Source of the DNA: Octopus vulgaris
Lineage: Eukaryota
Length of the DNA: 64,000 bases
Direction of reading: 5' to 3'
Assembly: GCA_951406725.2 (NCBI GenBank)
Contig: OX597823.1
Span: 16,864,001 to 16,928,000 of the forward strand
Positions 1 through 18,000 of the stretch are shown here, in pieces. The stretch's first letter is position 1; each line of letters begins with the position of its first letter. Made by a program: the position numbers.

Positions 1-3000
1 TTGTTCAAGGATGCAGTGCATCACTCTGTCTAAGAATTGAACCCATGAACCTATGTTTGTGAACCCAACATCCTGAGCCTTCACAAAAGTTTAATAAATA
101 GCAAGAAATTGGTTTGTTATTATGAAATTAAACTGATTTTAGTTCAATAAATTTAAAATGGAATTTTTGAAAATTATGATTTAGAGTAAGAATTGTAATT
201 TTGGCAGAAAACACTTTTTTATGTTAGGGTGGGGTGAAGAATGTTCTGCCATCATAGAACCTCACAAAGAATGGTGCAAACAAGCTCCCTTTAAATGGGA
301 AAACTAAGTTCAAATGACTGCAGTACAGGAATTCTGCAATAGCATTAACCCTTTAGTGTTTAAACCAGCCAAATCCGGCCCAATATATTCTACATGTTTT
401 ATATTCAAACTGGCGATATCTAGCCTCTCACTCCTAACCTACAATGCCATTCTGAAAATAAACAATCACATCATTGAAACCTCAAAGCTATAAGATAATG
501 CATGATTAATTCAAAACAATTTGAGTGAAAAAGTATTACATTTAACAGAGTATTCTGAACACTAAAAGGTTAAACTTTGAGCTACCATATTTCTGTTGAA
601 ATGCACTGCCATTGTCTATTAATTTTGGAAGTTGTGAAGAATTCATTTAAATAACTTTGTCATTATGAAGCTAATGTTTGGAACATGACATGAGATTTTG
701 ATGGCAGGTTTTACTTCAGATCATTTTAAAACAGGGAATGTCTATGATTCAACCAGGAGTGACGTTATTACATGGTTTGGGATCAAAAAGATTAAACCAA
801 GTGATAAATAAAGTCAACCACCCAAGAACAGGAACAGAAATGAACTCTACAACAAGCTACCACAGAATCCCCAACTATCCAGTTCCACTCTTTAGACTTT
901 AGCTGACCTGAGACTGTTGTACAAGACCCTAATCCAGGGTACCATACAGTAGAAACTGACCTGAAAACAAACCTCTTCATTATACACAGCCATATATAAT
1001 GATTGCAGAAATAAATAAATAAGAGAACTTACAAAAGAAATGAGGTAAAACAAAGAATAAAATACTGCAATAGGAAAGAACTAGCATGGCAGTAGATGGA
1101 ATGAATTGGATATTCTTGACAAATGGTAACTTTCCTTATATTCTTGAAATCTTTTGTAAACAGTGTTGATTAGAATTTCTAAATGTTTGTAGGCAGGAGT
1201 ATTATTAATTTCTTTATTTTCTTCTGTTTAACTGTATTTACAAACTGTAAAGAAAAAGGATAAAATTCTTGGGACTTCAAATTCTTAGGTTTTTGGGGGT
1301 TTTTTTTTTTTAATACATCAACAAAACTGAAAGTCTGACAGAGATCTGGGGATATATTTTTTAATGTTTGGCCAATATTATTGCATCTTAGCTTTTATAA
1401 TACATCGTCTGGCAGTTATGACAAAGATTTTTTATAACTGAACAATAGATAGAAACATACATATACATATATAGAATATCAGGAAAGTCAGGAGGTATGA
1501 GATGGAGATATTTATGTCACCAGTTGATATCTATAGGATGACAATCGTTTCACAAACAACATCATGAGGAAATGATTTACTTTAATGTATAATAAAATAT
1601 TTTACATGTCTGCACTTTTGTGCATGTTATAAATTACATAGTACTATTGTACATTTGACAAACAAATGCAGGTATAGAAGGCTTGCTCATCAGATCAGCA
1701 GCATGCCATGGTTACATCCATTTTTCAACTTTAATATACACCTGTCACAGCTCCCAACTACTCTTTGCATACTCTGCCTGGTATAATATGTCACCCAGGA
1801 CAGGACAGGCTGAGGAGTCAGTGCCACACAGGGCAATATTCAAGTATGAGGGGAGACATCCATGTACTGCATCGCCGCATCTCGTAGAAGAGAAAGAGCA
1901 TGCCTTTGTGCAAGTCAGGGAAGAAGTCAACCCCCAAATGCACGGTGCACATCATAGTGGGAAAAGGGGACAATAACCTCTGTGAATTCTAGGAACAATG
2001 TGTCTGTTGATGGCATGCCACAACATGTTTTGGATGTGTGCAGGTAGATGGAGCCAACAATAATGGACAAGAGGACAAAGCCAGCAGCAACATGCCAGGA
2101 ACTGAGGCCAGTCCTGAAGTCCCATGGCGGTCACAGAGGGACCGGTGCCCTCCTCACTGGTTGGCTGATTATGAGACAAGTTAAGGCATGTCGTAAGGGT
2201 TGAGGAGAGGATGTGGGCAGGTTGGTTGAATGATCTTCCTGAGTGCTATAAGCATCACCATCAATTCATAGTCAGAGGCCTGGCTGTGCAGTAAAGAAGT
2301 TTGTTTCCCAACCACTTGGTTTTGAGTTCAGTCCCACTGTGTGACACCTTGGATAAGTGTCATCTACTTTAGCCTTGAGATGACCAATGTCACCTTGTCA
2401 ACAAAGGAAACTGCATGAGTGTATGTGTGCGTCTGTGTGCGCATATTAACTTCTCTTCACCATCCACTTTCACTTGCTTGCATCATGGCTCAGAGAGAAT
2501 CTACTGGGGCAGATTCTGTATGACTGGATGTCTTTCTTGTAGCCAAACAAAGCCTTGTTAAAGGATTTGGTGCAGAGAAACTGAAGGAAGCCTTGAGTAC
2601 ACATACACGCATATAACAGACATACATATTGCATAGTGGGGTAATAACTCGCTGACATTTTTGGGCCGTTGTTAATCACGTGTGTGATGTCTTTCAAAGA
2701 AATATGGCATAATCTACATTTACAGTTGTATCTTGTAACTCCAACGGCTTCACTGTCTCTTTTGTTAATTAGATATTTAGTTGGCAGTTTCCTGTTCTTG
2801 GACTGTAAATGTACAGCCTTTGAAGTATGATGTGACATAGACATCATGAGTTCTAAAGAGGCTTTGCTTCGTGTCAATATTACTATCTTCTTCGAGTCTA
2901 CAAGAAACATATCCATGTATGGTCTTTTTTTTGGTATGCTGAGTCTTTTCATCTTCAGGTCTTCTTTAAGGTATCCGAAATCCAGCTGATTTGGGGTTGT

Positions 3001-15000: not shown

Positions 15001-18000
15001 AACCTAAGAATTTGAAGTCCCAAGAATTTTATCCTTTTTCTTTACAGTTTGTAAATACAGTTAAACAGAAGAAAATAAAGAAATTAATAATACTCCTGTC
15101 TACAAACATTTAGAAATTCTAATCAACACTGTTTACAAAAGATTTCAAGAATATAAGGAAAGTTACCATTTGTCAAGAATATCCAATTCGTTCCATCTAC
15201 TGCCATGCTAGTTCTATCCTATTGCAGTATTTTATTCTTTGTTTTACCTCATTTCTTTTGTAAGTTCTCTTATTTATTTATTTCTGCAATCATTATGTAT
15301 GGCTGTGTATAATGAAGAGGTTTGTTTTCAGGTCAGTTTCTACTGTATGGTACCCTGGATTAGGGTCTTGTACAACAGTCTCAGGTCAGCTAAAATCTAA
15401 AGTGTGGAACTGGATAGTTGGGGATTCTGTGGTAGCCTGTTGTAGAGTTCATTTCTGTTCCTGTTCTTGGGTGGTTGACCTTATCTATCACTTGGTTTAA
15501 TCTTTTTGATCCCAAACCACATAGTAACGTCACTCCTGGTTGAATCATAGACATTCCCTGTTTTAAATTCATCTGAAGTAAAACCTGCCATCAAAATCTC
15601 ATGTCATGTTCCAAACATTTGCTTCATAATGACAAAGTTATTTAAATGAATTCTTCACAACTTCCAAAATTAATAGACAATGGCAGTGCATTTCAACAGA
15701 AATATGGTAGCTCAAAGTTTAATGCTATTGCAGAATTCCCGTACTGCAGTCATTTGAACTTGGTTTTCCCATTTAAAGGGAGCTTGTTTGCACCATTCTT
15801 TGTGAGGTTCTATGATGACAGAACAGGAAATGTGTCAAGCCCAACAGGAAACAGTATTTCCTAGGGCTACACAACAGTAGCATTCTTCCCTTTCATGGGA
15901 CTGTCACATTAAGTTGACAACATGCTATCACCTTATCATGCTGCTACTGCATGAATCTCTCTCAGAGATTTAGTATTTTTCAACTCTTTTTTCTAGTAAC
16001 ACTGGTACTTTGTGTACCCTCAATTATAATTAATAATTTATTATAAATTTCTACACACACATATTTATATGCACAGGTGTGTCTGTGTAGTAAGAAGCTT
16101 GTTTCCCAACCATATGGTTCCAGGTTCAGTCTCACTATGTGGCACCTATAGCTTCAGGCTGACCAGTGCCTTGTGAGTATATATATATCTGAATATATTT
16201 ATATTGTACTAGCAGTATCCGCACAAAGTTTTTAGGACAGGTATCTTATAGTCGTGATTCATATCGAGCCCTTCTGGGTATTAGCGCGCGTCTACGATGA
16301 GTCTACGAATTTACAAATAATTTACCATCATTTTTTTCCATTTTAATGCATTTTTTAAAAATAAAGTGAATGGTTACCTCTATGGAGTGAATGGTTACCT
16401 CTATGGAAATATATACACACACATTATACATAGAAGTAACTCTCAAACTTCACACCAATATGCGTGCTCATATGCGACGTAATATCACATCAGCAGCATT
16501 TCCTCACACCCTCCTTGCACTTGGCGAAGGCAAAATACCAGGGGATGAAAATGGTAATATTGCCATCGATTCCATTTGTACCATTGTTAAGACGCCTTCT
16601 GATCTCAGAGATGCAGTGTTCCCAGATCTACAAGCTAATTATCAGAATATGGATTGGATTGGCAAAAAGGCTATACTGGCCCCGAGGAATAAAACTGTTC
16701 ACCATATTAATGATAAAATGCTAAAACTCATTCCTGGGGAAGTCTATGTATATCAGTCTATCGATACAACTCCTGACCCAGAGGATGTCATCAACTATCC
16801 AATAGAGGTACTCAATTCCTTTGAGCACCCCGGACTACCACCACACTTTCTCAAATTTAAAGTTGGTGCCCCTATAATGCTCATCAGAAATTTGGTTCCC
16901 CCCAAAACAATGCAATGGCACACGTTTGATCGTTAAGTCCTTATCTCCCACCGTAAGCTTATATCAATATTTGCCTGAATAATCATCATAATTCAGTGCA
17001 ATCATTAACAGTACACTCAAGCAATTCAGCCCCGAGCAACGCCGGGCAATTCTGCTAGTATATATATATAGGCACAGGAGTGGCTGTGTGGTAAGTAGCT
17101 TGCTAACCAACCACATGGTTCCGGGTTCAGTCCCACTGCCTGGCATCTTGGGCAAGTGTCTTCTGCTATAGCCCCGGGCCGACAAACGCCTTGTGAGTGG
17201 ATTTGGTAGACGGAAACTGAAAGAAGCCTGTCGTATATATATATATATATATATATATATATGTGTGTGTGTTTGTGTGTCTGTGTTTGTGCCCCTAGCA
17301 TTGTTTGACAACCGATGCTGGTGTGTTTATGTCCCCATCACTTAGCGGTTCGGCAAAAGAGACCGATAGAATAAGTACTGGGCTTACAAAGAATAAGTCC
17401 CGGGGTCGATTTGCTCGACTAAAGGCGGTGCTCCAGCATGGCTGCAGTCAAATGACTGAAACAAGTAAAAGAGTAAAGAGAATACACACACACACATACA
17501 CATACACACACACACACAGACAGACTGACAAACACATATGTATGTATCTGTGTGTGTGTGTCTTTTTGTCTGTTTGTCTCCCCCCACCCCACAAGCTTGG
17601 CAACCAGTGTTGCTGTGTTTGTGTCCCCATAACTTAGCAGTTTGGCAAAGAGATCAATAGAATAAGTAGCAGGCTTAAAGGAAAATTAAAGGAAAATTGG
17701 GTTAATTCGTTCGATTAGAAATTCTTCAAGGTGGTGCCCCAGCATGGCCACAGTCTAGTGACTGAAACAAGTAAAACATAAAAGCTATGTGCATGTGTGT
17801 TTGCTGCCTTTGTTGTGACCTCTCGTGATGACTGTAAACAAGCATCACCATCATAAAGGCAGTGTCCCTTGTTACCAGTTTTATGGAAAAAGGTGAGGGT
17901 TGGTGACAGGAACAGCATCTAGTTGTAGAAAATCTGCCTCAACAAATTCCGCCTGACCCATGCAAGCATGGGAAAGGTAGATATTGAAATGATGATAATG

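What the first reader, a model, noticed from the sequence alone, without database searches (positions are those of the whole stretch)
242..15825. Inverted duplication gives two head-to-head copies of the same signal-peptide exon
Seen: arms 242-2797 and 13489-15825 are near-identical by eye. Each holds an intact 212-nt exon (acceptor, 5' UTR, gccATG, signal peptide, GTAAGT donor): + at 15048-15259 and - at 1033-1244. The only coding difference is synonymous. Homology stops ~0.55 kb into the next intron. Inference: two divergently transcribed genes share an identical leader cassette, maintained by recent duplication or gene conversion. Recombination between the arms would flip the ~10.7 kb interior without damaging either gene, which could act as an inversion polymorphism or switch.
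Basis: partly seen in the sequence, partly recalled or inferred. Interest (0 to 1): 0.8.

Follow-up and report, generated by a model that had tools for sequence, protein, structure and literature searches.

The report
Inverted 2.3-kb duplication, doubtful exon
Two near-identical 2.3-kb stretches do face each other across 10.7 kb, but they look like an ordinary copied piece of repeat-rich non-coding DNA, and the "signal-peptide exon" inside them is no better than chance would give.

Summary
The inverted repeat is real. Arm A is 243-2797 (-) and arm B is 13489-15824 (+). They differ by 51 substitutions in 2329 aligned columns (97.8% identity) and 5 indels, with sharp ends and no third copy in the window.

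Nothing supports a gene:
- The same ATG, hydrophobic ORF, GTRAGT donor and acceptor pattern occurs at 7 donor sites in the window. Composition-matched random sequence gives about 1.1-1.2 per 64 kb.
- The segment is no more conserved than its flanks: 3 of 212 differences, P=0.32.
- Of 457 ORFs of at least 50 aa scanned across the window, the three hit families with clear mobile-element links are RVT_1, Pif1_2B and DUF7083. The other hits are weak, and one stronger one (Vitelline_membr) was not located.

The arms are a mosaic of old repeats and unique DNA. Arm A later gained a TTAA-flanked 221-nt MITE. Arm B is bracketed by a 10-nt direct repeat that occurs nowhere else in the window except at the start of arm A.

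My best reading is a microhomology-mediated templated copy of A inserted at B. Flipping of the interior is possible in principle but untested. Interest is low.

The parts
243..2797 (-). Arm A of the inverted duplication (2555 nt including a 225-nt later insertion); probable source copy
13489..15824 (+). Arm B of the inverted duplication (2336 nt); probable derived, inserted copy
15048..15259 (+). Exon-like segment: AG acceptor, 157 nt, ATG at 15205, 18 codons + 1 nt, GTAAGT donor. Judged a chance pattern.
1033..1244 (-). Mirror copy of the exon-like segment (ATG at 1087), 3 nt different from the + copy
345..573 (.). Arm-A-only insertion: 221-nt element at 349-569 with 12-nt terminal inverted repeats (11 of 12 matching), flanked by duplicated TTAA (345-348 and 570-573). 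The piggyBac-type MITE label comes from recall. Arm B has a single TTAA at this site.
13489..13498 (+). 10-mer GAACAGGAAA at the inner junction of arm B (also the first 10 nt of arm A, 2797-2788 on the - strand)
15821..15830 (+). Second copy of the same 10-mer across the outer junction of arm B (4 nt inside the arm, 6 nt in the flank); target-duplication-like
13662..14021 (+). Old, diverged copy (70-78%) of a roughly 430-nt SINE-like repeat inside the arm (mirror about 2264-2624 in arm A). Younger copies lie at 9898-10313, 17059-17484 and 49502-49899.
15496..15738 (+). Old repeat inside the arm, 60-72% similar to 37126-37356, 39789-40018, 39593-39687 and 52651-52766
2798..13488 (.). 10,691-nt spacer between the arms: repeat-rich, no protein family found above threshold
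3795..4130 (-). Degenerate reverse-transcriptase fragment next to arm A (RVT_1, E=0.019, 15.1 bits, below the 29.6-bit cut-off). It may continue into arm A.
3480..3862 (+). SINE copy X1 with a tRNA-like head (by eye), target duplication ATTCACAGTAA. It interrupts the RT-bearing element.
12188..12572 (+). SINE copy X2, 96.9% identical to X1, same orientation, target duplication AGCATTTCGCTT

Best explanation
This is a small inverted segmental duplication of ordinary, repeat-mosaic, probably non-coding DNA in a repeat-dense animal genome. A 2.3-kb stretch at arm A was copied in reverse orientation into a site 10.7 kb away, making arm B. The most likely route is a replication or repair template switch that annealed at a 10-nt microhomology (GAACAGGAAA) and returned at a 4-nt one (GAAC). 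That leaves arm B bracketed by a 10-nt direct repeat.

The two copies then drifted neutrally to about 2.2% divergence, and arm A picked up a TTAA-flanked MITE. The 'signal-peptide exon' is a chance ATG, hydrophobic ORF and GTAAGT pattern in T-rich sequence that was carried along as a passenger.

Shown: the repeat, its ends, its mosaic make-up, the junction 10-mer, the MITE, the even spread of differences, and the chance level of the exon pattern. Inferred: the direction A to B, the template-switch mechanism, and the absence of a gene.
For: - Repeat and sharp ends.
- No third copy in 64 kb.
- The unit is a mosaic and not one transposon. An old SINE-like copy lies at 13662-14021, an old repeat at 15496-15738, and the rest is unique. 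There are no terminal inverted repeats, no poly-A, and no flanking target duplication around the whole 15.6 kb.
- The 10-mer GAACAGGAAA occurs 3 times in the window: at the start of each arm and across B's outer junction. Shuffles expect 0.18, and 0 of 100 reach 3. The empirical chance that two positions share a non-repetitive 10-mer is 9e-6.
- Neutral drift: 51 substitutions spread 2-7 per 200 nt. A 105-aa ORF shared by the arms has 10 nt differences giving 8 amino-acid changes, and another ORF is frameshifted in B.
- Exon pattern at chance level: 7 donor loci with the same pattern in the window. Two are the arm copies, three are microsatellite-driven, and two are independent (23503-23601 + and 58673-58568 -). 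Markov simulations give a mean of 1.23 (order 1) and 1.08 (order 3) per 64 kb, 60 runs each.
- The exon-like segment has 3 differences in 212 nt against 51 in 2329 overall, P(<=3)=0.32.
- Pfam on all 457 stop-to-stop ORFs of at least 50 aa with entropy above 3.5 (50 low-complexity ORFs of 507 dropped): 0 of 122 ORFs in 1-15397 hit anything better than E=0.0015. The only strong hit among the + strand ORFs downstream of arm B is a Pif1 helicase fragment at 16391-16933. DUF7083 came from a set mixing both strands and was not located. The two RVT_1 hits are on the - strand.
- Passages of PMC2621351 read describe microhomology junctions (2-5 bp in human cases, 2-15 bp in E. coli lac amplification) followed by sequence copied from elsewhere, including inverted segments.
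Against: - A real exon cannot be excluded. Exons lying in ORFs shorter than 50 aa were not scanned, and a lineage-specific protein would not hit Pfam.
- Only 1032 nt lie downstream of the minus copy before the window ends.
- No transcript data and no eukaryotic protein or genome collection were available.
- The splice-like sites are good by eye (pyrimidine tract plus AG; GTAAGT).
- Ten nucleotides is long for a template-switch microhomology in the human cases quoted (2-5 bp).
- The direction A to B rests partly on my reading that a degenerate LINE ORF runs across the inner end of arm A (197-aa ORF 2473-3063 on the - strand). That reading uses motifs recalled from memory. Pfam, the PDB sequence search and the ESM Atlas gave no support for it.
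- One Pfam hit, Vitelline_membr (E=8.7e-5, - strand set 32530-63893), was not located. I take it for compositional bias.
Confidence: 0.6

Rival explanations
1. One reading: both copies are real leader exons of two divergently transcribed secreted-protein genes, and recombination between the arms flips the interior as a polymorphism or switch.
For: Both copies keep the ATG, the open frame, the donor and the acceptor. The single ORF difference is synonymous. The arms are long and similar enough for homologous exchange (97.8% over 2.3 kb). A human inversion that swaps the first exons of AQP12A and AQP12B is described in a passage of PMC3961182, so the arrangement has a precedent.
Against: One synonymous change in 55 nt carries no weight. 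The pattern is at chance level and shows no excess conservation. No recognisable downstream exon was found in the 48.7 kb after the + copy. The leader has no charged n-region. T-rich DNA translates into Phe, Leu and Ile by default. The + copy appears to be a passenger in a templated insertion.
Confidence: 0.07
2. RNA-mediated copy: a read-through transcript starting in the LINE next to arm A and running into its 3' flank was reverse-transcribed at the B site. This would be 3'-transduction-like, 5'-truncated, with a 10-nt target duplication.
For: Arm B is bracketed by a 10-nt direct repeat, a typical length for a LINE target duplication. An RT fragment lies just beyond arm A on the same strand. 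By my recalled motif reading, B starts inside LINE ORF2. Both copies end in GAAC, which would fit priming by microhomology.
Against: There is no poly-A or simple-repeat tail at the 3' end of B. The upstream copy of the '10-nt duplication' is also present in A, so it is microhomology and not a pure target duplication. The LINE identity of the arm's inner part is not supported by Pfam, the PDB or the Atlas.
Confidence: 0.12
3. Assembly artefact: the second arm is the other haplotype, or a chimeric or palindromic read, wrongly joined in inverted orientation.
For: About 2.2% divergence plus one MITE presence/absence difference is within what two haplotypes of a polymorphic invertebrate could show. 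No read data could be consulted.
Against: Both arms have unique, unrelated flanks on both sides. B's junctions carry a microhomology and target-duplication signature that a mis-join would not create. There is no N gap in the window. The spacer is not symmetric, as a fold-back read artefact would be.
Confidence: 0.08
4. The two arms are the long terminal inverted repeats of one large (15.6 kb) DNA transposon of the Maverick/Polinton or foldback kind.
For: The total size and long inverted ends resemble such elements (resemblance recalled, not tested against a library).
Against: No target duplication flanks 243 and 15824. No integrase, polymerase, transposase or capsid family was found among the 122 ORFs of 1-15397. 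The arms are a mosaic of older repeats and are not tandem sub-repeats.
Confidence: 0.03

Closest known systems
Inverted low-copy repeats (small segmental duplications) that mediate inversions by non-allelic homologous recombination, such as the human HsInv set (PMC3961182; passages read)
   Same: Two copies lie in inverted orientation on one molecule. They share 97.8% identity over more than 2 kb and flank a 10.7-kb unique interval. That paper's own working definition of a highly identical inverted repeat is at least 1 kb and at least 97% identity. It also describes an inversion (HsInv0241) that swaps the first exons of AQP12A and AQP12B.
   Different: No evidence here that both orientations exist, nor that any gene or exon is involved. 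The longest perfect match is only 182 nt.
FoSTeS/MMBIR template-switch rearrangements (PMC2621351; abstract and passages read)
   Same: A stretch copied from a nearby locus, in inverted orientation, is joined at microhomologies, with a short duplication at the return point.
   Different: One junction has 10 nt of microhomology, longer than the 2-5 bp quoted for the human cases. This is an old, fixed or segregating germ-line event in an unknown animal, not a de novo event. The mechanism is inferred from the junctions only.
Fold-back inverted duplications (PMC3907307; search listing and start of abstract only)
   Same: The product is an inverted duplication.
   Different: Fold-back products, as I recall them, have adjacent arms with a short spacer and involve terminal deletions. 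Here the arms are 10.7 kb apart, with unrelated sequence next to each inner end.
LINE 3' transduction and twin priming (recalled; twin priming is mentioned in the abstract listing of bioRxiv 10.1101/2021.12.20.472354)
   Same: A copy begins inside a putative LINE 3' part, continues into its flank, and is bracketed by a 10-nt repeat.
   Different: There is no tail. The apparent 'inverted 5' piece' (12188-12572) turned out to be an independent SINE with its own target duplication.
Programmed DNA-inversion switches of bacteria and phages (Hin/Gin/Fim, shufflons; recalled)
   Different: Those use short specific sites and a nearby site-specific recombinase. No recombinase family was found in the window, and the repeats here are long, drifting duplicates.

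Membership tests
Leader (signal-peptide) exon of a protein-coding gene | ATG-initiated open frame with a hydrophobic core, bounded by canonical splice sites | tested here: met
   Present in both copies, but the same pattern occurs at 7 donor loci in the window and at about 1.1-1.2 per 64 kb in Markov simulations. It is therefore not diagnostic.
Leader (signal-peptide) exon of a protein-coding gene | Downstream coding exons on the same strand | tested here: not met
   All 168 + strand ORFs of at least 50 aa in 15264-63999 were scanned with Pfam. The only strong hit among the 112 up to 47260 is a Pif1 helicase fragment. The remaining 56 were scanned together with 56 - strand ORFs; that set gave DUF7083, not located, and weak hits. 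Limits: short exons and novel proteins are invisible, and the minus copy's downstream lies off the window.
Leader (signal-peptide) exon of a protein-coding gene | Purifying selection relative to flanks | tested here: inconclusive
   3 of 212 differences against 51 of 2329 overall, P=0.32. One synonymous change in 55 coding nt.
Leader (signal-peptide) exon of a protein-coding gene | Transcription and splicing | not testable with these tools
   No transcript or read data. The 18-residue peptide is below the 20-residue minimum of every protein search offered.
Inverted low-copy repeat able to mediate NAHR inversion | Two inverted copies, at least 1 kb long and at least 97% identical, on one molecule | tested here: met
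   2329 aligned columns, 97.8% identity, 10,691 nt apart.
Inverted low-copy repeat able to mediate NAHR inversion | Low copy number, not a dispersed transposon family | tested here: inconclusive
   No third copy in 64 kb, and the unit is a mosaic. The rest of the genome could not be searched.
Inverted low-copy repeat able to mediate NAHR inversion | Both orientations of the interior exist | not testable with these tools
   Needs long reads or PCR from several individuals.
Microhomology-mediated templated insertion (FoSTeS/MMBIR type) | Microhomology at both junctions, with the insert copied from elsewhere | tested here: met
   10 nt (GAACAGGAAA) at the inner junction and 4 nt (GAAC) at the outer one. 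The 10-mer is found only at these three places in the window.
Microhomology-mediated templated insertion (FoSTeS/MMBIR type) | Empty target site in a relative or other haplotype | not testable with these tools
   No related genome was available, and no paralogous empty site exists in the window.
Large DNA transposon with long terminal inverted repeats (Maverick/Polinton, foldback) | Target-site duplication around the whole element, and element-encoded proteins inside | tested here: not met
   The flanks at 242 and 15825 do not match. None of the 122 ORFs in 1-15397 hits integrase, polymerase or transposase families.
LINE-mediated retrocopy (3' transduction) | 3' tail (poly-A or simple repeat) followed by a target duplication | tested here: not met
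   B ends ...GACAGAAC and is followed directly by AGGAAATG, with no tail. The 10-nt repeat is present, but its upstream copy is shared with A.
Site-specific DNA inversion switch | Recombinase gene and short specific sites | tested here: not met
   No recombinase family among the 457 ORFs scanned.

The most novel reading that the evidence does not exclude
The leader segments are real first coding exons, and the two arms form an invertible cassette. Exchange between the arms would swap the upstream promoter and 5' exon context of two secreted-protein genes. This would be an animal counterpart of the human AQP12A/B first-exon inversion, in a lineage where it has not been described.
Probability: 0.04. 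Interest if true: 0.5.

Novelty: new member of a known kind. Interest (0 to 1): 0.13.

Why it matters
It matters little beyond annotation hygiene. The case shows that a neat-looking "signal-peptide exon" in T-rich, repeat-dense DNA can be a chance pattern duplicated as a passenger. The junctions are a clean textbook-style example: a 10-nt and a 4-nt microhomology, with a later TTAA-flanked MITE that marks one copy. They could serve to time and orient a small inverted duplication. If the species has population long-read data, the pair is a reasonable candidate site for a small (about 10.7 kb) inversion polymorphism, but nothing suggests a functional consequence.

Tried and rejected
- **Twin-primed LINE.** I considered arm B plus the same-orientation match 3480-3862 / 12188-12572 as one twin-primed LINE insertion. 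Rejected: that match is a separate SINE (tRNA-like head by eye) on the + strand in both places, each with its own 11-12-nt target duplication.
- **Longer, older palindrome.** Co-linear inverted pairs lie in the spacer: 4509-4886/10948-11381, 5744-6238/10478-10892 and 8075-8222/10313-10466. Rejected for the last two: they also match each other in direct orientation and match 61709-62048 in both orientations, so they are copies of an internally symmetric repeat. The first pair stays unexplained.
- **LINE ORF2 across the inner end of arm A.** Pfam at E up to 10 gave only RVT_1 E=0.019 for 3795-4130(-), and nothing for 9 other ORFs. The PDB sequence search of 3090-3467(-) gave only chance-level hits (E 0.61 and 1.7). 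The ESM Atlas gave no usable hit for 2473-3063(-). The LINE reading rests on recalled motifs only.
- **RNA genes.** Rfam found 0 matches at gathering scores in the whole window. With the E-value threshold on 1-17600 there were 27 sub-threshold matches, none in the arms, all hairpin or low-complexity types. ARAGORN found 0 tRNAs, so the SINE head is not recognised as a tRNA by either tool.
- **Other copies.** I searched for other copies of the MITE and for an empty-site paralogue of B's flanks. None in the window.
- **Locating Pfam hits.** A guess at the ORFs behind the RVT_1 and DUF7083 hits missed. RVT_1 was then found at 63160-63345(-) and 35726-35947(-). DUF7083 and Vitelline_membr were not located.

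
Full report
**Observation.** The window has no N, is about 38% G+C and is dense in microsatellites, satellites and transposon debris. I do not take it for human. It carries SINEs with tRNA-like heads, a TTAA-flanked MITE and long (TA)n runs. Beyond 'an animal, probably an invertebrate', the organism is unknown to me.

The inverted repeat is real. The repeat finder reports five abutting inverted pieces at 95-98%. blastn joins 570-2797 with 15722-13489 into one 2235-nt match at 97.5%. 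A global alignment puts the ends at 243/15824 and 2797/13489, beyond which similarity drops to noise. Over 2329 aligned columns there are 51 substitutions (36 transitions, 15 transversions) and five indels of 1, 2, 2, 3 and 225 nt.

It has ATG at 15205/1087, 18 codons plus one base, and GTAAGT. The two copies differ at three positions. One lies in the ORF and is synonymous.

**What the arms are made of.** Neither arm has a further copy in the 64 kb. The unit is a mosaic:
- 13662-14021 is an old (70-78%) copy of a roughly 430-nt SINE-like repeat. Younger copies at 9898-10313, 17059-17484 and 49502-49899 end in (TA)n.
- 15496-15738 is an old copy of another repeat seen at four other places.
- The remainder, including the exon-like segment, is unique in the window.
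- The unit has no terminal inverted repeats and no tail.

This is what a piece of ordinary intergenic or intronic DNA looks like, not a single mobile element.

Arm A alone carries a 221-nt element (349-569). It has 12-nt inverted termini and a duplicated TTAA, where arm B has a single TTAA. I read this as a MITE of the piggyBac target type (family name recalled) that inserted after the duplication. No other copy is in the window.

**Is the exon real?** Four tests argue against, or at least fail to support it.
1. I scanned both strands for an ATG, 12-40 open codons with at least 8 of 10 hydrophobic residues, ending at GTRAGT, with a pyrimidine-rich YAG within 300 nt upstream. This finds 7 donor loci in the window. 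Two are the arm copies, three are microsatellite translations, and two are independent: 23503-23601 (+), which is a better-looking signal peptide, and 58673-58568 (-). Two more loci lack the acceptor. Markov simulations of the window give 1.23 (order 1) and 1.08 (order 3) loci per 64 kb, with a maximum of 4, from 60 runs each. One such pattern per window is therefore expected. The local sequence is T-rich, which translates to Phe, Leu and Ile by default.
2. The segment is not better conserved than its surroundings: 3 of 212 against 51 of 2329, P(<=3)=0.32. One synonymous change in 55 nt says nothing.
3. The arms as a whole drift freely. Differences are spread 2-7 per 200 nt. A 105-aa ORF open in both arms has 10 nt differences giving 8 replacements, and the ORF at the inner end is frameshifted in B.
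4. I translated every stop-to-stop ORF of at least 50 aa (507 in all). I dropped 50 of low complexity (entropy 3.5 or less) and scanned the remaining 457 against Pfam in four batches.
   - In 1-15397, none of 122 ORFs hit better than E=0.0015, and the three weak hits are bacterial DUFs.
   - All 168 + strand ORFs downstream of arm B were scanned. The only strong hit among the 112 up to 47260 is a Pif1 helicase 2B domain at 16391-16933, E=5.2e-10, Helitron-like by recall.
   - The remaining 56 + strand ORFs were scanned together with 56 - strand ORFs. That set gave DUF7083 (E=3.7e-10), which I did not locate, and weak hits.
   - On the - strand there are two weak RVT_1 fragments at 63160-63345 and 35726-35947. 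There is also an unlocated Vitelline_membr hit (E=8.7e-5), which I take for compositional bias.

No host-type domain was found. Three limits apply. Exons in ORFs under 50 aa and lineage-specific proteins would be missed. The minus copy has only 1032 nt of window downstream. The 18-residue peptide is too short for any protein search offered. I built no spliced model and joined no exons, so there was no second exon to search, and the joined-model step was left out.

**Junctions and origin.** The unit starts GAACAGGAAAC... in both arms and ends ...CAGAAC. In B the outer flank continues AGGAAAT, so B is bracketed by the direct 10-mer GAACAGGAAA at 13489-13498 and 15821-15830. In A the outer flank is unrelated. 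The 10-mer occurs only at these two places and at the start of arm A in the whole window. Shuffles expect 0.18, and 0 of 100 reach three. Two random positions share a non-repetitive 10-mer with probability about 9e-6.

The simplest account runs as follows. The B site originally read ...CACT-GAACAGGAAA-TGTG.... A nascent strand ending in that 10-mer annealed to the identical 10-mer at arm A and copied 2.3 kb. It then returned to the B site at GAAC and re-copied AGGAAA. This gives an inverted, templated insertion with 10-nt and 4-nt microhomologies, as in the FoSTeS/MMBIR model. PMC2621351 describes microhomology junctions followed by sequence from elsewhere, inverted segments, and microhomologies of 2-5 bp in human cases and 2-15 bp in E. 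coli (passages).

A weaker second pointer to A as the source is a degenerate RT-bearing element on the minus strand. It has RVT_1 at 3795-4130 (E=0.019) and is interrupted by a SINE at 3480-3862. It seems to run on into arm A through a 197-aa ORF (3063-2473) that crosses the arm's inner end, whereas in B the frame is closed just outside the arm. That continuity rests on LINE C-terminal motifs I recall. Pfam, the PDB and the ESM Atlas gave it no support.

**The spacer.** The 10,691 nt between the arms hold the RT fragment and two copies of a 385-nt SINE in the same orientation. Each copy has its own target duplication, ATTCACAGTAA and AGCATTTCGCTT. The spacer also holds a cluster of hairpin-forming repeats at 6248-8663, (TA)n runs, and internally symmetric repeats that mimic a longer palindrome. 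It holds no recombinase and no recognisable gene.

**Rivals.**
- **An RNA-mediated copy** (LINE read-through) would explain the 10-nt bracket, but there is no tail.
- **A mis-assembly** is unlikely, given unique flanks on all four sides and the junction signature. Only reads can exclude it.
- **A single large transposon with long inverted ends** fails on target duplication and on encoded proteins.

**Inversion potential.** Inverted repeats of this size and identity are the known substrate of recurrent inversions. PMC3961182 includes one inversion that swaps the first exons of AQP12A and AQP12B (passages). Here the longest perfect run is 182 nt. The even spread of differences gives no sign of ongoing gene conversion. 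Whether the interior ever flips cannot be told from one sequence.

**What stayed unchecked.** I could not look for other copies of the unit in the genome, for homologues of any ORF beyond Pfam, the PDB and the Atlas, or for expression. Supplements of the two papers were not consulted.

**Verdict.** This is a real but ordinary small inverted duplication with a tidy microhomology signature. The exon and gene interpretation is unsupported. Interest is low.

Noticed in passing
window 345-573: A 221-nt element with 12-nt inverted termini and a duplicated TTAA, present in arm A only; arm B keeps the intact TTAA site. It looks like a young piggyBac-type MITE (family recalled). No other copy in the window.
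   Followed up: yes
window 3480-3862 and 12188-12572 (+): Two 96.9%-identical copies of a roughly 385-nt SINE with box-A/box-B-like motifs at the 5' end (by eye). Each has its own 11-12-nt target duplication. ARAGORN and Rfam do not call the head a tRNA.
   Followed up: yes
window 16391-16933 (+): Fragment of a Pif1-type helicase (Pif1_2B domain, E=5.2e-10) about 570 nt beyond arm B. Probably a Helitron remnant (recalled association). No Rep or N-terminal helicase part was found upstream.
   Followed up: partly
window 4509-4886 and 10948-11381: An inverted pair (79% overall, core 88%) inside the spacer, with no third copy in the window and no homology between it and the arms. It could be two copies of a transposon or a relic of an older inverted duplication.
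   Followed up: partly
window 6248-8663: A cluster of about 200-400-nt repeats in both orientations, including a near-palindrome at 6444-6856 (91%). A further copy lies at 48090-48449. It gives sub-threshold plant-miRNA-like Rfam hits (for example MIR391, 44 bits against a gathering score of 70), which I take for hairpin artefacts.
   Followed up: partly
window 33877-34571, 45145-45483, 46620-47148 (also ORFs at 37397-37989, 40887-41304, 51343-51767): Related G+C-richer satellite arrays with a 62-67-nt unit (up to 11.3 copies) that stay open in several reading frames. They account for many of the long ORFs in the window.
   Followed up: partly
window 23503-23601 (+): An independent ATG-initiated hydrophobic ORF (33 codons) ending at a GTRAGT donor, with an acceptor-like site upstream. 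It looks at least as much like a signal peptide as the finding and served as a control.
   Followed up: partly
window 63160-63345 (-), 35726-35947 (-), 3795-4130 (-): Three short reverse-transcriptase fragments (RVT_1, E=8.7e-5, 7.3e-5 and 0.019; all below the gathering score). These are degenerate retroelement remains.
   Followed up: partly
ORF sets (not located): One ORF matches DUF7083 (E=3.7e-10; set 46618-63999 + and 15393-32526 -). One ORF matches Vitelline_membr (E=8.7e-5; - strand set 32530-63893). I did not find which ORFs these are.
   Followed up: no
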